From Alphaproteobacteria bacterium (GTDB lineage: Bacteria; Pseudomonadota; Alphaproteobacteria; UBA828): a DNA stretch of 64,000 bases. The position numbers and the translations under genes were made by a program. The notes under the pieces are model-generated. The model was not told where the DNA came from, did no database searches, and was given only the letters and a program-made list of their open reading frames with translations. Shown piece by piece: positions 1 to 8,686 of the stretch (positions within the stretch are counted from its first letter, which is position 1; the number at the start of each line of letters is the position of its first letter). The DNA lies in contig CBDCRW010000005.1 of assembly GCA_965221125.1 (NCBI GenBank), forward strand, positions 544,001 to 608,000, written 5' to 3'.

Positions 1-141
1 CTGCGCAGGCTCAGGCCCCGGATGGCGGCGCTGCTGGCCCGGCCGGCGCCCGGCCTCGAGGACGTGCGCTCTTACGCGCCGCTGGCCGATGTGGCGGCGG
101 CCCGCCATGAGGAGGCGGCGGTCCGACTCTTCAGCAACTGA
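1..141 (+). CDS. ureF: Urease accessory protein UreF, 3' end (partial)
   Basis: Frame 1 reads ...YAPLADVAAARHEEAAVRLFSN*, matching the UreF C-terminal P-x-x-D...HE...RLF motif; directly upstream of urease genes. Confidence 0.75.
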   Translation: MRRLRPRMAALLARPAPGLEDVRSYAPLADVAAARHEEAAVRLFSN

Positions 142-156
142 TCAGGGTGGCCCACG

Positions 157-852
157 ATGCTGCTGACACCGACGGAGACGGAGCGGCTCACCATCTTCAC
201 CGCCGCCGAGCTTGCGCGCCGCCGCCGCGCACGGGGCCGCGCGCTCAACCACCCGGAGGCCGTGGCGCTGATCAGCGACGAGATCCTGGAGGGCGCGCGC
301 GACGGACGCTCGGTGGCCGAGCTGATCGAGCAAGGTGCTGCCATCCTCACCACCGACGACGTCATGCCCGGCGTCGCCGAGATGATGCCCGTGCTGCAGG
401 TCGAGGGCACCTTCCCCGACGGCACCAAGCTGGTGACGGTCCACGAGCCGATCCGCCCCGGCAAGAAGGTGCAGGACGAAAGCGTGCGCCCCGGCGAGAT
501 CATCCCGGCGGACGGCGAGATCGAGATCAACGCCGGCCGGCCGACCGCCACGGTCTCGGTCACCAACACCGGCGACCGGCCGGTGCAGATCGGCAGCCAC
601 TACCACTTCTTCGAGGTGAACCGGCACCTCGACTTCGACCGCGCCGCGTCCTTCGGCATGCGCCTCGACATCCCTGCCGGCACGGCAGTCCGCTTCGCGC
701 CCGGCGAGACGAAGGAGGTGACCCTCGTGGAATTCGGCGGCAGCGGCGAGATGGTGGGGCTCAACGACCTCACGCAAGGCTCGCGGCGCTCCGAGAGCGT
801 CAAGCAGGAGGCGCTGGCCCGTGCCCGCGCCCGCGGCTTCAAGGGAGCTTGA
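157..852 (+). CDS. ureAB: Fused urease gamma/beta subunit
   Basis: [18 protein letters not shown] (gamma) followed by [31 protein letters not shown] (beta). Confidence 0.93.
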
Positions 853-855
853 GCG

Positions 856-2568
856 ATGGCACGGATGAGCAGGGCGGACTACGCGGCGCTCTACGGGCCC
901 ACCACCGGCGATTGCGTCCGGCTGGGAGACAGCGAGCTGCTCGCCGAGATCGAGCACGACCACGGCGTGCCCGGCGAGGAGTGCCTGCACGGCGGCGGCA
1001 AGACGCTGCGGGACGGCATCGGCCTCGTCGCCGGCCTCGACAGCGCGCAAGGCTCGCTCGACATGCTGGTCTCCAACGCCGTTGTCATCGATCCCGTGCT
1101 GGGGATCGTCAAGGGCGACATCGGTATCAAGGAGGGGCTGATCGCGGGCGTGGGCAAGGCCGGCAACCCCGCGGTGATGGACGGGGTGGACCCCGAGCTT
1201 CTCTGCGGCGCCGCGACCACGGTGCGCGATGCCGAGGGGCTGATCGCGACGCCCGGCGGCATCGACGTGCACGTCCACTTCGACAGCGCGCAGCTCTGCC
1301 AGCACGCCATCGCGAGCGGCGTCACGACCATGCTGGGCGGCTCGCTCGGGCCGATCACCGTCGGCATCGACTGCGGCGGCGCCTGGAACGTGGGCAAGAT
1401 GCTGCAGGCGGCCGAGGAATGGCCGATCAACTTCGGCTTCCTCGGGCGCGGCAACTCGGCCAGGCCGCACTCACTGGTCGACCAGATTGCGGGCGGCTGC
1501 ATGGGCCTCAAGATCCACGAGGACTGGGGCGCCATGCCGGCGGCGATCGACACCTGCCTCGGCGTCGCCGACGACATGGATTTTCAAGTCCAGCTCCACA
1601 CCGACACGCTGAACGAGAGCGGCTTCCTCGAGGAGACGCTGGCCGCGATCAAGGGCCGCACGATCCACATGTACCACGCGGAAGGCGCCGGCGGCGGCCA
1701 CGCGCCCGACATCATCCGCATCACCGGCGAGCCCAACTGCCTGCCGTCGTCCACCAACCCCACCAACCCGTACACGCGCAACACCTTCGACGAACACCTC
1801 GACATGATCATGGTGTGCCACCACCTGAACCCGGCGGTGCCGGAGGACGTGGCCTTCGCCGAGAGCAGGATCCGCGCGCAGACCATCGCGGCCGAGGACG
1901 TGCTGCACGACATCGGCGCGATCTCGATGCTGGGCTCGGACAGCCAGGGGATGGGGCGGATCAACGAGGTCATCTGCCGCACCTGGCAGCTTGCCTCCAA
2001 GATGAGGGGCCAGCGCGGGCGGCTCGTCTCGGAGCGGACGGCCAAGGGCGACAACGAGCGCATCAAGCGCTACATCGCGAAGTACACCATCAACGCCGCC
2101 CGCACCTTCGGCATCGACAGCCACATCGGCTCGCTTGAGGCGGGCAAGCTCGCGGACGTGGTGCTCTGGCGCCCGGCCTTCTTCGGCATCAAGCCGGAGC
2201 TGGTCATCAAGGGCGGCTTCATCGTGTGGTCGGCGATGGGGGACAGCGCCGCCTCGCTGATGACCTGCGAGCCGCTGATGATGCGCCCGCAGTGGGGCGC
2301 CTTCGGCCGGGCCAAGGAGGCGCTCAGCCTCAGCTTCATCTCGCAGGCGGCGGCGGAGGCAGACGTCGCGGGCAGGCTCGGGCTGCAGAGCCGCACCGTG
2401 CCCGTGCGGGGCACGCGCAAGCTCGCCAAGGGCCACATGCTGCACAACGACGCCTGCCCCGAGGTGACGGTCGATCCCCAGACCTTCGAGGTGATGGTCG
2501 ACGGCGAGCTTGCGACCTGCGAGCCGGCGGACGAGCTGCCGCTCGCCCAGCGCTACATGCTGCGCTAG
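856..2568 (+). CDS. ureC: Urease alpha subunit (divergent clade)
   Basis: [50 protein letters not shown] motifs. Confidence 0.92.
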
Positions 2569-2595
2569 GGGGCGCGCGCACGCGAGGGCGAGGGC

Positions 2596-3822
2596 ATGGA
2601 CCGGATCCTGCGCGGCGCCCTCGTCGCCGGCGGCGACGGCGCCCGGCTCGACATCGGCATCGCCGACGGGCGCATCGCCGAGATCGCGCCCCGGATCGAG
2701 GCGGATGCGCCGGTGCTGGACGTGGACGGCCGCCTCGTGGCCCCCGGCTTCGTCGAGACCCACATCCACCTCGACAAGGCCTGCATCCTCGACCGCTGCA
2801 GCGCGGAGAGAGGCGATCTCGCCGAGGCCATCGACGAGGTGGCGCGGGTCAAGCGGGCGTTCACGGCCGACGACGTGAACACGCGCGCACGCCGCGTGCT
2901 CGACGCCTGCATCGCCCAGGGCACGACCCACATGCGCACCCACCTGGAGGTCGACCCCGGCATCGGCATGCGCGGCTTCGACGGCGTGCTGCCGCTGATC
3001 GAGGCCTACCGCTGGGCCATCGACCTGGAGATCTGCGTCTTTCCGCAGGAGGGGCTGCTCAACAATCCGGGCACCGACGCGCTGATGGTCGACGCGCTGG
3101 AGCGCGGCGCCCGCGTGGTCGGCGCCGCGCCCTACACCGACAGCGACCCGGCCGGCCAGATCGACCGCGTGTTCGCGCTCGCCCGGCAGTTCGACGTCGA
3201 CATCGACATGCACCTCGACTTCGGCGAGAGCGCGGATGATCTCGACCTTGACCAGGTCTGCGCGCTGACCGAGCGCTTCGGCTACGGCGGGCGGGTGACG
3301 GTCGGCCACGTCACCAAGCTCTCGGCGGCGACGCCCGAGCACCTGGCGCGCGTTGCCGGGCGCATGGCGGAGGCGGGGGTCGCCTGCACCGTGCTGCCGG
3401 CGACCGACCTCTTCCTCATGGGGCGTGGCGATGCGGCCAATGTGCGGCGCGGCGTCACGGCCGCGCACCGGCTGCTCGGCCATGGCGTCAACTGCTCGCT
3501 CTCGTCCAACAACGTGCTCAACCCTTTCACGCCCTTCGGCGACTGCTCGCTGGTGCGCATGGCCAACCTCTACGCCAACGTGGCCCACGTGGGCGCGCGC
3601 GCGGAGATGCTCGACTGCTTCGACATGATCACGCGCCGCTCGGCCCGCATCCTCGGCCTCGACGACTACGGCATCGCCGTGGGCAAGGCGGCCGATCTCG
3701 TGGTGCTGGACGCGCAAGATGCAGCCCAGGCCGTGGCCGCGGTGGCCCCGCCGCTCTACGGCTTCAAGCGCGGGCGCATGACCTTCCGGCGCCCGCCGGC
3801 GGAGCTCCTGGGACCGCCCTAG
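2596..3822 (+). CDS. Cytosine deaminase-like metal-dependent amidohydrolase
   Basis: ETHIHLDKA, FPQEG, GHVT, NPFTPFG, G..ADLVVLDA motifs of the CodA/AtzC-like family. Confidence 0.85.
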   Translation: MDRILRGALVAGGDGARLDIGIADGRIAEIAPRIEADAPVLDVDGRLVAPGFVETHIHLDKACILDRCSAERGDLAEAIDEVARVKRAFTADDVNTRARRVLDACIAQGTTHMRTHLEVDPGIGMRGFDGVLPLIEAYRWAIDLEICVFPQEGLLNNPGTDALMVDALERGARVVGAAPYTDSDPAGQIDRVFALARQFDVDIDMHLDFGESADDLDLDQVCALTERFGYGGRVTVGHVTKLSAATPEHLARVAGRMAEAGVACTVLPATDLFLMGRGDAANVRRGVTAAHRLLGHGVNCSLSSNNVLNPFTPFGDCSLVRMANLYANVAHVGARAEMLDCFDMITRRSARILGLDDYGIAVGKAADLVVLDAQDAAQAVAAVAPPLYGFKRGRMTFRRPPAELLGPP

Positions 3823-3978
3823 CGCTGCAGTGCAGCGTGTGCAGTGAACGTCGCAGGTTGTGCGGTCGCGACGGCGCCGGTCATTGGACGAGTCGATTCG
3901 AGAGCGCACCGCTATAATGTTCTGCCCCCCGGTCCGGCCGGGGGCCTCTCGCGCTTGCGTCCGAAGAAGGAATCGCCG

Positions 3979-5040
3979 GTGAAGCGCTGGGGCTACATCG
4001 GACTCATCGTCGGCATCGCGCTGGTCATCGGGCTCGTCTGCTATCAGGGCGCCGGCGACGTGGCGGCTGCCGTCGCCGCGGTGAGCTGGGGCATCGCGGT
4101 GGTCGTCCTGGTGCGCCTCGTGCCGATCATGCTCGACGGCTACGTCTGGCGGCTGCTCTTCCTGGACGGCCACCGGCCGTCGGTGCTGACGGCGCTTTGG
4201 GCGCGCTGGATCGGGGAAGCGGTCAACACGCTGGTGCCGGCTTTCCAGGTGGGGGGCGCGGTGGTCCGCTCCAGGCTCCTGGTGATGCGCGGCGTGCCGG
4301 GGCGCATCGCAGGTGCCAGCGTCGTCGTCGACCTCACCCTCAGCACGATAACGCTCCTGTTCTTCACCCTGGTCGGTATCGGCCTGCTGATGGCCCACCA
4401 CGGCGAAAGCGATATCGCGCGGGCCATCGGCTACTGCGTGGCGGGCGGGTTCGTGGTCGTCATCCTGCTCTGCGTCTTTCAGCAGCGCGGGCTCTTCGGC
4501 TGGATCATCGGCCGCGTGGCGCGCTTCGCCAGAGGCAAGGCATGGGACAACGCCATCGGCGGCGCCCAGGCGCTCGACGAGGCGATCCTCGACCTCTACC
4601 GCCACCGCTGGCTGCTGGCGGGGAACGCGAGCGGGCAGCTTGCCGCCTGGGTGCTGGGCGCCGCCGAGATCTACGCTGCGCTCCACTTCATGGGCTACGA
4701 GGTCACCGTCGCCGACGCGCTGCTGCTGGAAAGCCTCATCCTGGCGACGCGGACGGCCGCGTTCTTCGTGCCGGGCGCGCTCGGCGTGCAGGAGGGCGTG
4801 CTGGTGCTGCTCGGCGGCATGATCGGCTTGGGGCCCGAGGTGGCGCTCGCGCTCTCGCTGATCAAGCGGGTGCGCGAGCTGGTGATCGGCGTTCCCGGCC
4901 TCATCGCCTGGCAGATCGCCGAAGGGAAGAACCTTTTCTCCGGCGTGCGCAAGCGTCGGGGCAAAGCACCGTCGGCGCCGGAGCCGCCGGCCTCTGTCGC
5001 GCCCGCGCCCGCCGCCGGCCGTTCGCGCGAAGCTCTCTGA
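3979..5040 (+). CDS. Lysylphosphatidylglycerol synthase-type (HpnL-like) flippase-domain membrane protein
   Basis: Multi-TM; ARWIGEAVNTLVP and FFVPGALGVQEG motifs; GTG start after AAGGA. Confidence 0.75.
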   Translation: MKRWGYIGLIVGIALVIGLVCYQGAGDVAAAVAAVSWGIAVVVLVRLVPIMLDGYVWRLLFLDGHRPSVLTALWARWIGEAVNTLVPAFQVGGAVVRSRLLVMRGVPGRIAGASVVVDLTLSTITLLFFTLVGIGLLMAHHGESDIARAIGYCVAGGFVVVILLCVFQQRGLFGWIIGRVARFARGKAWDNAIGGAQALDEAILDLYRHRWLLAGNASGQLAAWVLGAAEIYAALHFMGYEVTVADALLLESLILATRTAAFFVPGALGVQEGVLVLLGGMIGLGPEVALALSLIKRVRELVIGVPGLIAWQIAEGKNLFSGVRKRRGKAPSAPEPPASVAPAPAAGRSREAL

Positions 5041-5073
5041 GACGGCGACCCACCACCAAATGGAGACCATTCG

Positions 5074-6063
5074 ATGGGCAGGATGATCGACGGCGTGTGG
5101 CACAAGGCCGATACCGACCGGAACGCGGCCGACGGCCGCTTCCTCCGGGCCACGACCTCGTTTCGCGACACCGTCACCGCCGACGGCTCATCCGGCTTCA
5201 AGGCCGCGCCCGGCCGCTACCATCTCTACGTCTCGCATGCCTGCCCGTGGGCGCACCGTACGACCATCCTGCGGGCTCTGCGCAAGCTGGAGGACGTGAT
5301 CTCGCTCTCGGTGGTGGACCCCTTCATGAGCGACGAAGGCTGGCACTTCAGCGACGGCCCCGGCTGCATCCCCGACACCGTGAACGGCGCGCGGTACCTG
5401 CGCGAGGTCTACAAGCTGGCGAAGGACGACTACACCGGGCGTGTCACGGTGCCGGTGCTCTGGGACAAGCGGGAGAAGACCATCGTCAACAACGAGTCTT
5501 CCGAGATCATCCGCATGCTCGACACGGCGTTCAACGCCTGGGGCGACGGCGAGCCGGAATTCCATCCCGCAGCGCTGAGGGACGAGATCGATGCGATCAA
5601 CGAGCCGATCTACGAGCACGTGAACAACGGCGTCTACAAGACCGGCTTCGCCCGCTCGCAGGCGGCCTACGAGGAGGCCTTCGACGCGCTGTTCGCGACC
5701 CTGGACGAGCTCGAGGCGCGGCTTGGCAGGCAACGCTATCTGGTGGGCGCGCGCATCACGGAGGCGGACTGGCGGCTCTTCGCCACGCTGGTCCGCTTCG
5801 ATGCCGTCTACGTCGGACACTTCAAGTGCAACCGGCACCGGATCGAGGACTATCCCAATCTGAGCAACTACCTGCGGGACCTGTACCAGCAGCCGGGGAT
5901 CGCCGGTACCGTCGACATGACGCACATCAAGCGGCACTACTACGAGAGCCAGGACAGCGTGAATCCCTCCCGCGTCGTGGCGAAGGGGCCGGTGCTCGAC
6001 TTCACCCGCCCGCACGACCGCGACCGCTTTTCGCTGCCGGAGGCGCAGGCGGCCGCACAGTAG
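5074..6063 (+). CDS. yqjG: Glutathionyl-hydroquinone reductase (GST omega/Xi class)
   Basis: CPWAHRT, RVTVPVLWD, NNESSEIIRM, NNGVYKTGFA motifs. Confidence 0.9.
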   Translation: MGRMIDGVWHKADTDRNAADGRFLRATTSFRDTVTADGSSGFKAAPGRYHLYVSHACPWAHRTTILRALRKLEDVISLSVVDPFMSDEGWHFSDGPGCIPDTVNGARYLREVYKLAKDDYTGRVTVPVLWDKREKTIVNNESSEIIRMLDTAFNAWGDGEPEFHPAALRDEIDAINEPIYEHVNNGVYKTGFARSQAAYEEAFDALFATLDELEARLGRQRYLVGARITEADWRLFATLVRFDAVYVGHFKCNRHRIEDYPNLSNYLRDLYQQPGIAGTVDMTHIKRHYYESQDSVNPSRVVAKGPVLDFTRPHDRDRFSLPEAQAAAQ

Positions 6064-6243
6064 CCCTGCGCCCCGCAGCCGTCGGGGGCCGCGAAGGGCC
6101 GGGGCGGAGCAGGGCAATGTTGCGATGCAACAATCTGTTCACAACGGCGTTGCGTTTGTTACAATGACCTCATGTTGCGGCGCAGCATGACGCGCCGGGG
6201 CGGCCGCGAGCCGCCCGCACGGCCTCGCAAGGGAGGCAACGAC

Positions 6244-7083
6244 ATGGCCAACGACAGCCCGGTCCGGCGGCTCACCGTCCGCAATATCGCCCGCGCCAAG
6301 GGGGGCGAGCCCATCGTGAGCCTCACCGCCTACACGGCGCCCGTCGCCCGCATCGCCGACGAGGCCTGCGACTTCATCCTGGTGGGCGATTCTCTCGGCA
6401 TGGTGCTCTACGGCATGGAATCGACGGTCGGCGTCACGGTCGACATGATGGTCGCGCACGGCCGCGCCGTGGTGCGCGCCACCAGGCGGGCCTGCATCGT
6501 CGTGGACCTGCCCTTCGGCTCCTACGAGCAATCGCCCGCCCAGGCCTTCGGCACCGCCGCCCGCATCGTGGCGGAGACCGGCTGCGCGGCGGTCAAGCTC
6601 GAGGGCGGCCAGGAGATGGCGGAGACGATCGACTTCCTCACGGCGCGGGGCGTGCCCGTGCTCGGCCATGTCGGGCTGATGCCGCAATCGGTGAACGCCG
6701 CCGGCTTCCAGGTGCAGGGCAAGACCGAGGAGAGCGCGCGCCGCATCCGCGCCGACGCACGCGCGGTGGAGGCCGCAGGCGCCTTCGGCATCGTGATCGA
6801 GAACACGGTCGAGCTGCTCTCGCGCACGCTGACGCAGGAGCTCTCCGTCCCCACCATCGGCATCGGGGCGTCGCCGGCCTGCGACGGCCAGATCCTCGTC
6901 ACCGAGGACATCGTGGGCCTCGCCGGCGCCTTCACGCCGCGCTTCGTCAAGCGCTACGCCGAACTCGGCGACGGACTCGCCGATGCGGTGCGGAACTACG
7001 CGGCCGACGTGCGCGCCCGGCGCTTCCCCGGGCCTGAGCACACGGCCAACCCGGCAGTGCCGCAGGCAAAGTCCAAGGCCTGA
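6244..7083 (+). CDS. panB: 3-methyl-2-oxobutanoate hydroxymethyltransferase
   Basis: [34 protein letters not shown]; GGAGG RBS before ATG 6244. Confidence 0.95.
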
Positions 7084-7311
7084 GGACCGTGTTCCCGCGC
7101 TCTCCTTCCGGAGACGACGGGGCCGCTCGATGCCCGTTTGCCGCCAATGGGCTCGATTCGCATGCCGGTCTGCCACATTGCGAACACAAAGATTTGACAA
7201 CAGCACGGGTTCTGCACAGATCATGATGTGTGGGCTGGAACGCGCGCCCGGAGTCGGCGCTCCGGCTCCTGCAAGCCGGGACTGGGGGTTAGGGACGTGA
7301 GGAGACGATCC

Positions 7312-7785
7312 ATGCACAAGTTCAAGTTCGCGCTGCTCGGCATCGCCGCGCTGGCATTGGCCGGCTGCAGCGAGACTACCGGCTCGAAGGAGGGCCTGGG
7401 TACGCTTCTCGGCGCCGTGGCCGGCGGTGTCGCCGGCGCGCAGGTCGGCGACGGCCGCGGCCGGCTGATCGCCACGGGTGTCGGCACGCTCCTCGGCGCA
7501 GCCATCGGCAGCGAGATCGGCAAGTCGCTCGACCGCGCCGATCAGCTGGCGCTGCAGCATGAAACGCAGAACACGTTGGAGTACGCGCCCTCCGGCACGA
7601 CGAACACGTGGCACAATCCGGACAGCGGCAACAGCGGCACGATCACGGCGGCCCCGGCGTATCAGCAGAACGACGGGACCTACTGCCGCGAGTTCACCCA
7701 GACCGTGACGGTTGCCGGCGAGACCCAGCAGGCCTACGGCACCGCCTGCCGCCAGCCCGACGGGACCTGGCAGATCGTCTCGTAA
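7312..7785 (+). CDS. 17-kDa surface antigen-like lipoprotein (glycine zipper, RT0821/Lpp0805 type)
   Basis: Lipobox LAGC, glycine-zipper helices, WHNPDSG, CREF, GTACRQPDGTW. Confidence 0.88.
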   Translation: MHKFKFALLGIAALALAGCSETTGSKEGLGTLLGAVAGGVAGAQVGDGRGRLIATGVGTLLGAAIGSEIGKSLDRADQLALQHETQNTLEYAPSGTTNTWHNPDSGNSGTITAAPAYQQNDGTYCREFTQTVTVAGETQQAYGTACRQPDGTWQIVS

Positions 7786-7831
7786 CGAGCGGCGCGTCTC
7801 GGGAAACGCCGTCCCGGGACGCTGGCCGCCG

Positions 7832-8686
7832 ATGGCGCCTGCGGTCATCGAGAGCGTCGCCGGCTTGCGCGAGGCCGTCGGCGCGTGGCGCAGGCGCGGC
7901 CTGACGGTTTCTCTCGTCCCCACCATGGGGGCGCTGCACGAGGGCCACATGGCGCTCGTGCGGGCCGCCCGCGTGCACGGCGGGCGCACGGTGGTCAGCC
8001 TCTTCGTCAACCCCGCGCAGTTCGCGCCGAACGAGGATTTCGACCTCTATCCCCGCAATCCGGCCGACGACCTCGCGAAGCTGGCCGAGGCGGGCGTCGA
8101 GGCGGTGTTCATGCCGACGGTGGACACGGTCTACCCGCCGGGGTTTGCCACCACGGTGCACGTGGACGGCGTCACCGCCGGGCTGGAGAGCGCGGCCCGG
8201 CCTCACTTCTTCGACGGCGTCGCCACCGTCGTCGCCAAGCTCCTGCTCCAGTGCCTGCCCGATGTCGCGCTCTTCGGCGAGAAGGACTATCAGCAGCTCG
8301 CCACCGTGCGTCGCCTCGTGGCCGACCTCGACATCCCCTGCCGGATCGAGGCGGTGCCCACCGTGCGCGACGGCGACGGCCTCGCGCTCTCCTCCCGCAA
8401 CGTCTATCTCTCCGCCGAAGAACGCCGGGTCGCGCCCCGGCTCTTCGAGGTGCTGAGCTGGATGGCGGCGGCGCTCGCCCAAGGTGCGACCTCGGCCGAC
8501 GCGATCGCCAACGGCGCTTCTGCGCTCACGGCTGCGGGCTTCACCCGTATCGACTATCTCGCGGTCTGCGATGCCGAGACGCTCGCGCCGGTGGAGCGCA
8601 TTGCCGCACCGGCACGCGTGCTCGCCGCCGCCTGGCTCGGCGAGACGCGGCTTATCGACAATGTGCCGGTGAACCCTGCCGACTGA
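7832..8686 (+). CDS. panC: Pantoate-beta-alanine ligase
   Basis: PTMGALHEGH, FVNPAQF, FGEKDYQQL, GLALSSRN, RLIDN. Confidence 0.95.
   Translation: MAPAVIESVAGLREAVGAWRRRGLTVSLVPTMGALHEGHMALVRAARVHGGRTVVSLFVNPAQFAPNEDFDLYPRNPADDLAKLAEAGVEAVFMPTVDTVYPPGFATTVHVDGVTAGLESAARPHFFDGVATVVAKLLLQCLPDVALFGEKDYQQLATVRRLVADLDIPCRIEAVPTVRDGDGLALSSRNVYLSAEERRVAPRLFEVLSWMAAALAQGATSADAIANGASALTAAGFTRIDYLAVCDAETLAPVERIAAPARVLAAAWLGETRLIDNVPVNPAD

What the first reader, a model, noticed from the sequence alone, without database searches (positions are those of the whole stretch)
1..3822. Urease-like operon with a remodelled substrate pocket, possibly hydrolysing something other than urea
Seen: all Ni-ligand motifs and the flap MVCHHL are present. 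The loop that is GGGTGP..GT.ATTCTPG in canonical ureases (carrying the urea-contacting Ala167, K. aerogenes numbering) reads [15 protein letters not shown] at ~1336-1380 and is about 3 residues shorter. SDSQAMGR (Ala363) is SDSQGMGR and KFGGGK is LHGGGK. Gamma and beta are fused, ureF lies upstream, and a deaminase-like gene follows 27 bp after ureC. Inference: a Ni-amidohydrolase clade acting on a substituted urea, carbamate or amide, coupled to the neighbouring enzyme in an uncharacterised nitrogen-scavenging pathway.
Basis: partly seen in the sequence, partly recalled or inferred. Interest (0 to 1): 0.72.

Follow-up and report, generated by a model that had tools for sequence, protein, structure and literature searches.

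The report
Short-loop urease operon, neighbour link unsupported
This is an intact nickel-urease gene set of a widespread but biochemically untested lineage whose urea-contacting loop is consistently altered; it most likely still splits urea, and the supposed partnership with the neighbouring deaminase-like gene does not hold up.

Summary
ureF (3' end), fused ureAB, ureC and a CodA-like gene sit exactly as described. Against K. aerogenes UreC the loop at 1336-1380 is 3 residues shorter, both urea-contacting alanines are glycines, and all Ni ligands and the flap Cys-His are kept.

It is not a private oddity. All 80 best relatives (79-97% identical, of 488 found) carry the same loop, and they form one clade. 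The scan met this clade before on other DNA. Its usual operon is ureE-F-AB-C-G-D, often beside AmiC/AmiR-like regulators, an ABC importer and the amidase amiE.

The CodA-like neighbour follows ureC in only 12 of 80 loci, all close kin. Its own family is otherwise almost never next to ureC (4 of 80), and it lacks the catalytic Glu and Asp of cytosine deaminase. The proposed coupling is therefore not supported.

A non-urea substrate is neither shown nor excluded. For urease: curated urease models pass, catalytic residues are intact, and a complete clade-type ureE/F/G/D set exists, dispersed over three loci. For a shifted substrate: 0 of 53 neighbouring binding proteins keep the urea-binding Gln/Asn of UrtA, and this genus typically keeps three UreC types.

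This genome has lost its canonical urease.

The parts
1..141 (+). 3' end of ureF; the gene starts upstream of the window, near G000:C5:543446
   Evidence: PF01730 UreF match at G000:C5:543572-544012, 114.2 bits. The ORF is listed. It is 40-98% identical to the ureF that precedes ureAB in 70 of 80 relatives.
157..852 (+). ureAB, fused urease gamma/beta subunit (231 aa)
   Evidence: NF009671 364.5 bits, cut-off 243. PF00547 plus PF00699.
856..2568 (+). ureC, short-loop urease alpha subunit (570 aa)
   Evidence: TIGR01792 812.5 bits, cut-off 680. All Ni ligands and catalytic residues aligned to PDB 1ejw. Member of the GSLG clade of 138 sequences.
1336..1380 (+). Active-site loop [15 protein letters not shown], 3 residues shorter than canonical; the Ala167 position is Gly
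   Evidence: Present in all 80 of 80 relatives.
1936..1959 (+). SDSQGMGR: Ni ligand Asp360 kept, Ala363 replaced by Gly
1810..1827 (+). Mobile-flap motif MVCHHL (Cys319, His320 equivalents)
985..1002 (+). LHGGGK, where canonical ureases read KFGGGK
   Evidence: CLHGGGK occurs in the short-loop clade members shown.
2596..3822 (+). CodA-like amidohydrolase lacking the deaminase Glu and Asp. It is a lineage-specific insertion at the place where relatives have ureG-ureD.
   Evidence: Below all NCBIfam cut-offs: 260.2 against 408, and 229.3 against 438. HLDF and SSNN stand where CodA has HCDE and GHDD. Found in 12 of 80 ureC loci.
3844..5040 (+). HpnL-like flippase-type membrane protein; same strand, short gap
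   Evidence: TIGR03476 296.7 bits, cut-off 195.65. Syntenic in 5 of 80 relatives. No terminator-like site found in 1-7200.
5074..6063 (+). GST-family protein; same strand
   Evidence: PF13410 and PF13409. Syntenic in 5 of 80 relatives.

Best explanation
The window holds the structural genes of a nickel urease of the 'short-loop' lineage: fused gamma/beta UreAB plus a UreC with the loop [15 protein letters not shown] and Gly at both urea-contacting Ala positions.

How it most likely works:
- UreAB and UreC assemble into a urease-type complex.
- A lineage-specific accessory set loads the carbamylated-Lys di-nickel site. That set is now scattered: ureF in the window, ureE-ureG on another contig, and ureD behind a second short-loop paralogue.
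- The enzyme hydrolyses urea to ammonia and carbamate for nitrogen scavenging.

In most bacteria this lineage is a compact ureE-F-AB-C-G-D operon inside a short-chain amide/urea utilisation island (AmiC/AmiR-type control, ABC importer, often amiE). In this genus ureG-ureD were displaced from the operon and an unrelated CodA-like gene was inserted.

Shown: gene content, motifs, clade membership, dispersal of the accessory genes, and loss of the canonical urease in this genome. Inferred: nickel loading, urea as substrate, and co-transcription with the downstream genes.
For: - Curated models: TIGR01792 at 812.5 bits (cut-off 680) and NF009671 at 364.5 bits (cut-off 243).
- Every Ni ligand and catalytic residue of K. 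aerogenes UreC is kept.
- Of 80 relatives, 62 have ureG directly after ureC, 60 of them followed by ureD; 70 have ureF before ureAB; 53 have ureE. The lineage therefore keeps a full nickel-insertion kit.
- The own genome has exactly one ureG, one ureD and one ureF, plus a ureE next to ureG (NF009752 189.9 bits, cut-off 162).
- The own UreG is 64-75% identical to the UreG of short-loop operons, but 52.6% identical to the sister genome's canonical UreG.
- The short-loop UreC is the only UreC-like match in Dongia soli. In a sample of 301 alphaproteobacterial genomes, 6 of the 11 that carry the clade show no canonical-type copy. This count includes the own genome and one partial hit, and only 4 candidates per genome were scored.
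- The own genome has lost its canonical urease, leaving only a 3' ureC remnant.
- Contigs 90-99% alike occur in four metatranscriptome libraries. This is weak evidence.
Against: - No member of the clade was found to be biochemically characterised. Searches covered an open-access library only.
- The two residues whose backbone carbonyls bind the urea nitrogen (Ala170 and Ala366 in S. pasteurii; PMC7433671) are both Gly, and the loop is 3 residues shorter and more hydrophobic.
- 0 of 53 binding proteins or sensors next to short-loop ureases keep the Gln144 and Asn246 that hydrogen-bond urea in UrtA. The 2 binding proteins found beside canonical ureases do keep them. P. syringae pv. cilantro has both systems side by side in one genome.
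- The sensors are closer to the acetamide sensor AmiC (320 bits) than to solved urea-binding proteins (about 200 bits).
- 17 of 20 genomes of this genus keep three UreC types, which suggests non-redundant roles.
- There is a precedent for an intact, transcribed second urease operon that adds no urease activity: Brucella ure2 (PMC2868824, passages read). It is a different, unfused cluster, and I did not test its clade membership.
Confidence: 0.6

Rival explanations
1. The short-loop clade is a nickel amidohydrolase whose physiological substrate is not urea, or not only urea. Candidates are a short-chain amide (formamide or acetamide type) or an N-substituted urea. The substrate would be delivered by the neighbouring amide-type ABC importer and induced through AmiC/AmiR. 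The Ala-to-Gly changes and the shorter, more hydrophobic loop would reshape the side of the pocket near Ni(2).
For: - Clade-wide pocket changes.
- 0 of 53 adjacent binding proteins or sensors have the urea-binding Gln/Asn; they read like AmiC.
- In P. syringae pv. cilantro, Dongia soli and Aminobacter the importer genes run straight into ureE-F-AB-C-G-D with no other hydrolase between.
- The same P. syringae genome pairs a urea-type UrtA with its canonical urease.
- Three UreC types are retained in 17 of 20 genomes of the genus.
- amiE lies in 22 of 80 loci.
- Many named carriers are methylotrophs, but this was not tested statistically.
Against: - All residues that bind the urea oxygen and protonate the leaving nitrogen are unchanged.
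- The Ala-to-Gly changes keep the backbone carbonyls.
- The curated urease equivalog is passed.
- Where amiE is present, an amide hydrolase already exists.
- A characterised amide-type importer also carries urea.
- The P. syringae binding protein still passes the UrtA model, 535.1 bits against a cut-off of 492.75.
- The AlphaFold model could not place the loop (pLDDT below 50), so there is no structural support.
Confidence: 0.3
2. One reading: UreC and the adjacent CodA-like 'deaminase' form a two-step pathway for an uncharacterised nitrogen compound.
For: A 27-bp gap on the same strand, with no terminator-like site in 1-7200. The adjacency is kept in 12 close relatives. One contig from an RNA library bridges the junction at 2483-2702 (weak evidence).
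Against: The adjacency is confined to relatives whose UreC is at least 87% identical (12 of 80). The CodA-like family lies near a ureC in only 4 of 80 loci; in the 4 other loci inspected it is followed directly by an amidase, which in the one tested (L228) passes NF006169 (PRK08310). It lacks the Glu217 and Asp313 equivalents needed for CodA-type deamination, and this holds in all 12 orthologues. Within the lineage, L018 keeps ureC without it.
Confidence: 0.05
3. The window's copy is a decaying or inactive remnant, because ureE, ureG and ureD have left the operon.
For: The operon is truncated to ureF-ureAB-ureC. The canonical urease in the same genome has decayed.
Against: The reading frames are intact and 92-97% identical across 19 of 20 genomes of the genus. 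The loop and catalytic motifs are invariant. Clade-type ureE, ureG and ureD are intact elsewhere in the genome. Five complete sister genomes show the same dispersed second F/G/D set.
Confidence: 0.05

Closest known systems
Canonical bacterial nickel ureases (K. aerogenes UreABC, S. pasteurii; PDB 1ejw, 4ubp and others)
   Same: Same fold family by sequence: 696 bits to 1ejw and 53-58% identity to canonical-loop UreC. The Ni ligands, carbamylated Lys, His219, Asp221, flap Cys-His and Arg336 are identical. It needs UreD/E/F/G-type accessory genes.
   Different: Gamma and beta are fused. The loop carrying Ala167 is 3 residues shorter and reads ITVGIDCGG. Ala167 and Ala363 are Gly. There are further clade signatures: [24 protein letters not shown] and [13 protein letters not shown]. 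The operon order is ureE-F-AB-C-G-D rather than ureDABCEFG.
Fused ure(AB)C / ure(AB)CFGD clusters annotated in Streptomyces and other bacteria (PMC5489568, passages read; NCBIfam NF009671)
   Same: Fused gamma/beta subunit with a separate alpha subunit. They are annotated as urease and co-occur with a canonical ureABCFGD cluster.
   Different: I did not test whether the Streptomyces copies carry the same short loop. The activity of the fused type alone was not separated in that paper.
M. methylotrophus fmdCABDEF and the P. aeruginosa amiEBCRS amide systems (review PMC10781810; PMC13209695)
   Same: The usual surroundings of the clade: an AmiC-like sensor plus an ANTAR regulator, a Liv/Urt-type ABC importer with an AmiC-like pocket, and amiE.
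   Different: Those systems end in an amidase or formamidase, not in a urease-type enzyme. In this window none of these genes is adjacent. The genome has its amiE and its importer at other loci.
Brucella ure2 operon (PMC2868824, passages read)
   Same: A second, intact and transcribed urease gene set that co-exists with an active urease and has an unexplained role.
   Different: It is unfused (ureABCEFGDT plus nik genes). Membership of the short-loop clade was not tested here, so it serves only as a precedent.

Membership tests
Urease alpha subunit (UreC, TIGR01792, EC 3.5.1.5) | Profile score above the curated equivalog cut-off | tested here: met
   812.5 bits against 680. The own paralogue scores 732.8 and a canonical P. 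syringae copy 996.7.
Urease alpha subunit (UreC, TIGR01792, EC 3.5.1.5) | Di-nickel ligands HxH, carbamylated Lys, His, His, Asp | tested here: met
   Aligned to His134, His136, Lys217, His246, His272 and Asp360 of PDB 1ejw. Invariant in alignment A1.
Urease alpha subunit (UreC, TIGR01792, EC 3.5.1.5) | Catalytic and substrate residues His219, Asp221, flap Cys319/His320, Arg336 | tested here: met
   KIHEDWG, MVCHHL and ESRIR are present.
Urease alpha subunit (UreC, TIGR01792, EC 3.5.1.5) | Canonical urea-contacting loop (GGGTGP..GT.ATTCTPG with Ala167) and SDSQAMGR (Ala363) | tested here: not met
   The loop is 3 residues shorter and both Ala are Gly. The contacts are made by backbone carbonyls (PMC7433671), so a loss of function does not follow.
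Urease alpha subunit (UreC, TIGR01792, EC 3.5.1.5) | Accessory genes ureD, ureE, ureF, ureG available | tested here: met
   One copy of each in the genome, at three loci.
Urease alpha subunit (UreC, TIGR01792, EC 3.5.1.5) | Hydrolysis of urea | not testable with these tools
   No characterised clade member was found in the paper searches.
Bifunctional urease gamma/beta subunit (NF009671) | Gamma and beta domains in one chain, with a score over the cut-off | tested here: met
   364.5 bits against 243. PF00547 at residues 1-99 and PF00699 at 112-208.
Short-loop ureE-F-AB-C-G-D operon type | Compact operon with ureE and ureF upstream and ureG and ureD downstream | tested here: not met
   Only ureF-ureAB-ureC lie here. 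ureE-ureG are at C4:279011-280104 and ureD is behind the paralogue at C5:410365-410961.
Short-loop ureE-F-AB-C-G-D operon type | UreC signature [12 protein letters not shown][CS][GS]G plus SDSQGMGR; monophyly | tested here: met
   The clade of 138 sequences contains no sequence without GSLG. FastTree support at the clade node itself is low (0.268), but support is 0.98 and 0.999 at the next two nodes out.
Cytosine deaminase CodA (for the neighbouring gene 2596-3822) | HxH, His214 and His246 metal and substrate residues | tested here: met
   ETHIHLD, MH and GHV aligned to PDB 1k6w.
Cytosine deaminase CodA (for the neighbouring gene 2596-3822) | Catalytic Glu217 and metal-binding Asp313 | tested here: not met
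   Phe and Asn at these positions, conserved in all 12 orthologues. Three paralogues in the same genome keep Glu and Asp.
Cytosine deaminase CodA (for the neighbouring gene 2596-3822) | Score over the curated cut-offs | tested here: not met
   229.3 against 438, 205.8 against 483 and 197.2 against 403. The best match, NF004636, scores 260.2 against 408.

The most novel reading that the evidence does not exclude
The short-loop UreAB/UreC lineage is found in at least 488 species-level genomes and usually sits beside amide sensors and amide-type importers. It may not be a second urease but a nickel hydrolase tuned to another small carbonyl-nitrogen compound, such as a short-chain amide or an N-substituted urea like methylurea. 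This genus would then keep two such specialised paralogues that share one dedicated, split set of nickel-insertion genes, separate from the canonical urease system.
Probability: 0.3. Interest if true: 0.8.

Novelty: new variant of a known kind. Interest (0 to 1): 0.45.

Why it matters
Genome annotation names every member of this lineage 'urease', and ureC surveys count it as urea-degrading capacity. Yet it differs from all solved ureases at exactly the two backbone positions that hold the urea nitrogen. It commonly co-exists with a canonical urease, and it is wired to amide-type rather than urea-type sensing and import.

One expression-and-assay experiment on one clade member would settle the question. 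Either hundreds of species carry a regulatory isozyme of urease, or they carry a new nickel amidohydrolase activity. That result would also show how far urease specificity can move.

For this particular window the practical message is narrower. The operon is a truncated member of that lineage, it is the only urease type left in the genome, and the adjacent 'deaminase' is an unrelated and probably non-deaminating insertion.

Tried and rejected
- All-against-all clustering of 3,723 flank ORFs gave no answer from the script machine. I replaced it with tblastn of chosen reference proteins.
19 of its 105 loci had no UreC, including Pseudorhodobacter sp. E13 and Pseudovibrio axinellae, whose genomes hold only a 54-56% identical UreC. 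It is therefore no census, and the 'urease-producing' strain E13 paper (PMC6554599, whole text read) says nothing about this clade.
- AlphaFold2 model of UreC from a 31-row alignment: mean pLDDT 78.4 and pTM 0.87. The loop 164-173, the flap 309-337 and residues 365-367 are below pLDDT 50. No coordinates are available to me, so the pocket could not be modelled and I ran no fold search.
- Rfam scan around the operon: only a sub-threshold 5_ureB_sRNA match antisense in ureC (26.9 bits against 40). I take this as sequence likeness to H. pylori ureB.
- Promoter and terminator scan: no terminator-like site in 1-7200, and one promoter-like site at 6138-6165 before panB. These are consensus matches only.
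- RNA libraries: only contigs, mostly 90-95% alike, so from relatives. They show presence in RNA libraries of four studies, not transcription of this locus. Parts without cover mean nothing.
- Paper search with 'ANTAR' was swamped by 'Antarctic'. The search with 'urease-like' returned nothing relevant.
- Protein atlas for the CodA-like protein returned only generic 'cytosine deaminase / amidohydrolase family' clusters.
- The TIGR03407 (UrtA) cut-off is not a reliable guide to ligand: a binding protein without Gln144 and Asn246 passes it.
- Lack of a urea-type UrtA in this genome is uninformative, because sister genomes with a canonical urease lack one too.
- No complex prediction was run, because I do not claim binding between UreC and its neighbour.
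Full report
**What is in the window.** Window bases 1-6063 carry six genes on the + strand with gaps of 3 to 33 bp:
- the 3' end of ureF (1-141);
- fused ureAB (157-852);
- ureC (856-2568);
- a CodA-like amidohydrolase (2596-3822);
- an HpnL-like membrane protein (3844-5040);
- a GST-family protein (5074-6063).

panB and panC follow. No terminator-like site was found in 1-7200, and the only promoter-like site lies before panB. Upstream, on the other strand, lies a D-aminoacylase-like gene. The window is G000:C5:544001-608000 of a 4.58-Mb, 69% G+C assembly that is 92% complete. DNA holders of the stretch are mainly sponge metagenomes.

**Check of the observation.**
- The alignment to K. aerogenes UreC (PDB 1ejw, 696 bits) shows all Ni ligands, the carbamylated Lys, His219, Asp221, the flap Cys-His and Arg336.
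- The loop at 1336-1380 reads [17 protein letters not shown] against [20 protein letters not shown].
- Ala167 and Ala363 are both Gly, and KFGGGK is LHGGGK.
- In S. pasteurii numbering these are Ala170 and Ala366. Their backbone carbonyls accept hydrogen bonds from the Ni(2)-bound and distal urea nitrogens, and the C-beta of Ala366 lines the site (PMC7433671, passages read).

**It is a clade, not a private change.** A scan of one genome per species found 488 relatives, and the 80 best (79-97% identical) were kept. They carry alpha-, beta- and gammaproteobacterial labels, plus one MAG labelled Dehalococcoidia.
- All 80 have [12 protein letters not shown][CS][GS]G and SDSQGMGR.
- In a tree of 150 distinct UreC sequences the 138 with GSLG form one clade with no intruder. 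Support at that node is low (0.268).
- A second copy from the own genome (64% identical, loop GGTMGPLFAIDCGGPW, flap MACHLL) is sister to the clade (support 0.98). A 62% copy from Aminobacter comes next (0.999). Canonical-loop sequences lie outside.
- Further clade signatures are [24 protein letters not shown] and [13 protein letters not shown].
- NCBI's curated models still call the proteins urease: TIGR01792 at 812.5 bits against 680, and NF009671 at 364.5 against 243.
- Earlier notes of this scan describe the same lineage on other DNA. I treated them as leads and re-derived everything here.

**Usual anatomy of the clade.** Among the 80 loci:
- 70 have ureF before ureAB, and 79 have ureAB;
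- 62 have ureG right after ureC, 60 of them followed by ureD;
- 53 have ureE before ureF.

Around this core lie Urt/Liv-type ABC importer genes (permease hits in 27-28 loci), a UrtA/AmiC-like binding protein or sensor (about 25 loci), the aliphatic amidase amiE (22 loci; NF009802 at 719 bits against 427 for one of them), ANTAR regulators and HupE/UreJ.

Named isolates show the same pattern:
- P. syringae pv. cilantro has importer-ureE-F-AB-C-G-D on one strand.
- Aminobacter has AmiC-ANTAR-importer-ureE..D-hupE.
- Aliihoeflea, Chenggangzhangella and an Oxalobacteraceae genome have AmiC-ANTAR with or without amiE.

**The neighbour.** The CodA-like gene follows ureC only in 12 of 80 loci, all with UreC at least 87% identical to the window's.
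- A search with the CodA-like protein itself found at least 552 relatives. Of the 80 best (59-92% identical), only 4 loci contain a UreC-like gene: 3 of this lineage and 1 canonical type.
- In all 4 other loci inspected it is followed directly by an amidase-signature gene. The one tested (L228) passes NF006169 at 517.5 bits against 391.
- Against E. coli cytosine deaminase (PDB 1k6w) it keeps HxH, Gln156, His214 and His246. It has Phe for the catalytic Glu217 and Ser-Asn-Asn for His312-Asp313-Asp314.
- This holds in all 12 orthologues. In the family at large, 74 of 80 matched my pattern and all have Phe or Leu at the Glu position; 66 of 80 matched S[ST]NN. The sequences that did not match the patterns were not inspected.
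- Three paralogues in the same genome keep Glu and Asp.
- It reaches no curated cut-off.

So the gene is not a credible deaminase, and its position after ureC is a recent, lineage-specific event.

**How the locus arose.** A genome of the same family but another genus has the D-aminoacylase-like gene divergent from a complete ureE-F-AB-C-G-D operon (L306). In the window's genus the operon is cut down to ureF-ureAB-ureC.
- Clade-type ureE-ureG sit alone at C4:279011-280104.
- ureD follows the second paralogue, whose ureAB and ureC lie at C5:407776-410182 and whose ureD lies at 410365-410961.
- The own UreG is 64-75% identical to the UreG of short-loop operons, but 52.6% identical to the canonical UreG of a sister genome.
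- Five complete sister genomes each have two ureF, two ureG and two ureD. One set is contiguous with a canonical ureA-B-C-E-F-G-D operon plus a metal transporter. The other set is dispersed exactly as here.
- 19 of 20 genomes of the genus have the short-loop UreC (92-97% identical), and 17 of 20 have three UreC types: short-loop, the 63-65% paralogue, and a 54% canonical copy.
- In the own genome the canonical operon is gone. Only a frame-broken 3' piece of ureC, 77-93% identical to the sister's canonical copy, remains at C4:340666-341144 beside what I take to be a transposase fragment (identified by eye, not searched). No canonical ureA, B, E, F, G or D was found. The assembly is 92% complete, so this is 'not found', supported by the remnant.

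**Urea or something else?**

In favour of urea:
- intact chemistry of the active site, the full nickel kit and passage of the curated urease equivalog;
- genomes where this is the only UreC type. Dongia soli is one. In a sample of 301 alphaproteobacterial genomes, 81 have a UreC-like match and 11 carry the clade. Of these 11, 5 also have a canonical-type copy and 6 do not. The 6 include the own genome and one partial hit, and only 4 candidates per genome were scored;
- Chenggangzhangella, whose canonical-type copy has two in-frame TGA stops while the short-loop copy is intact.

Against a simple second urease, I mapped the nine urea-pocket residues of Prochlorococcus UrtA (Trp120, Ser122, Tyr141, Gln144, Glu146, Tyr190, Phe192, Asn246, Ser274; PMC10392092, passages read). 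The mapping went through the printed alignments to PDB 8hic, 7s6e, 8tg1 and AmiC 1pea onto every UrtA/AmiC-like gene in my loci.
- None of 53 such genes beside short-loop ureases (this count includes the own genome's importer, which is not adjacent to the window) keeps Gln144 or Asn246. They read Y-S-Y-(Y/L/F/W/C)-E-Y-(W/Y/F)-V-x, like AmiC, which reads Y-S-Y-P-E-Y-Y-V-T.
- As a control I examined seven canonical-urease loci of other genomes and the sister-genome locus L300. Binding proteins were found in two, P. syringae pv. cilantro and B. australafricanum, and both read W-S-Y-Q-E-Y-Y-N-S.
- P. syringae therefore has a urea-type importer with its canonical urease, and an AmiC-type importer fused to its short-loop urease operon.
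- The cytoplasmic sensors are also nearer to AmiC (320 bits) than to solved urea-binding proteins (about 200 bits).

This is indirect evidence, and it cuts both ways. [quoted passage not shown] The P. syringae binding protein still passes the UrtA model (535 bits against 492.75). The genus of the window has no urea-type UrtA even where a canonical urease is present.

**Structure.** An AlphaFold2 model from a 31-row alignment has pTM 0.87, but the short loop (164-173), the flap (309-337) and residues 365-367 fall below pLDDT 50. The pocket could not be modelled, and no coordinates are available to me.

**Literature.**
- I found no biochemical characterisation of a fused-ureAB, short-loop urease. 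The library holds open-access papers and preprints only, and supplements were closed.
- Fused ure(AB)C clusters are counted as urease genes in Streptomyces (PMC5489568).
- ureAB of M. extorquens AM1 is reported as up-regulated in one transcriptome (PMC12797532, one passage).
- Brucella ure2 is a precedent for an intact, transcribed second urease set without measurable urease activity (PMC2868824). It is unfused, and I did not test its clade.

**Verdict.**
- Observation: confirmed.
- Interpretation: the pathway with the neighbouring gene is not supported; the altered-substrate idea remains open.
- Best reading (0.6): a true nickel urease isozyme of the amide/urea-scavenging lineage. Here it sits in a truncated operon that depends on dispersed accessory genes, and it is the only urease type left in this genome.
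- Main rival (0.3): a nickel hydrolase with a shifted substrate range.
- Novelty: a new variant of a known kind, already noted by this scan on other DNA.
- Interest: moderate. One assay would decide a question that touches hundreds of species.

Noticed in passing
window 2596-3822; loci L217-L296: The CodA-like protein belongs to a large family: at least 552 relatives, the best 80 being 59-92% identical. Its members have Phe or Leu for the catalytic Glu217 and Asn for Asp313 of cytosine deaminase. In 4 inspected loci (L223, L228, L248, L270) it is followed directly by an amidase-signature gene; the one tested (L228) passes NF006169 (PRK08310). The family's function is unknown.
   Followed up: partly
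G000:C4:340666-341144 (locus L298 6150-7147): A frame-broken 3' remnant of a canonical ureC, 77-93% identical to the sister genome's canonical copy. It lies beside what looks like a transposase fragment (identified by eye, not searched) and a DNA methyltransferase-like gene. The rest of the canonical ureABCEFGD operon was not found in this genome.
   Followed up: partly
G000:C5:407776-410961 (locus L297): A second short-loop paralogue, ureAB-ureC-ureD. Its UreC is 64% identical to the window's, its loop is one residue shorter still (GGTMGPLFAIDCGGPW) and its flap reads MACHLL. It is kept in most genomes of the genus.
   Followed up: partly
loci L210 and L310 (P. syringae pv. cilantro); L311: One genome holds a urea-type UrtA (pocket WSYQEYYNS) beside its canonical urease, and an AmiC-type binding protein (FSYFEYWVA) at the head of its short-loop urease operon. 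The latter still passes the TIGR03407 UrtA cut-off.
   Followed up: yes
L020 8001-9710 and 15708-17399: A Burkholderiales MAG carries a short-loop UreC and a canonical-loop UreC (56% identical to the window's UreC) 6 kb apart in one locus.
   Followed up: no
loci L085-L189 (names): Many named carriers of the clade are methylotrophs or methylamine users: Methylorubrum, Methylobacterium, Methyloversatilis, Methylopila, Hansschlegelia, Chenggangzhangella, Methyloligella, Methyloceanibacter and Aminobacter.
   Followed up: no
L207 (Chenggangzhangella methanolivorans, G008:C1:5537619-5538944): The canonical-type UreC match covers only residues 2-445 and has two in-frame TGA codons, while the short-loop copy in the same genome is intact.
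   Followed up: no
G000:C5:30271-35195 (L301); G000:C3:331852-332877 (L302): The own genome keeps an importer at a separate locus: UrtB, UrtC and UrtE are over their cut-offs, and the binding protein has an AmiC-type pocket (YSYFEYYVV). At another locus it keeps an aliphatic amidase amiE (679.7 bits against 427) next to a dihydropyrimidinase/hydantoinase gene.
   Followed up: partly
window 6138-6165: The only sigma-70-like promoter match in 1-7200 lies just before panB (6172-7083). panC follows at 7712-8686.
   Followed up: no
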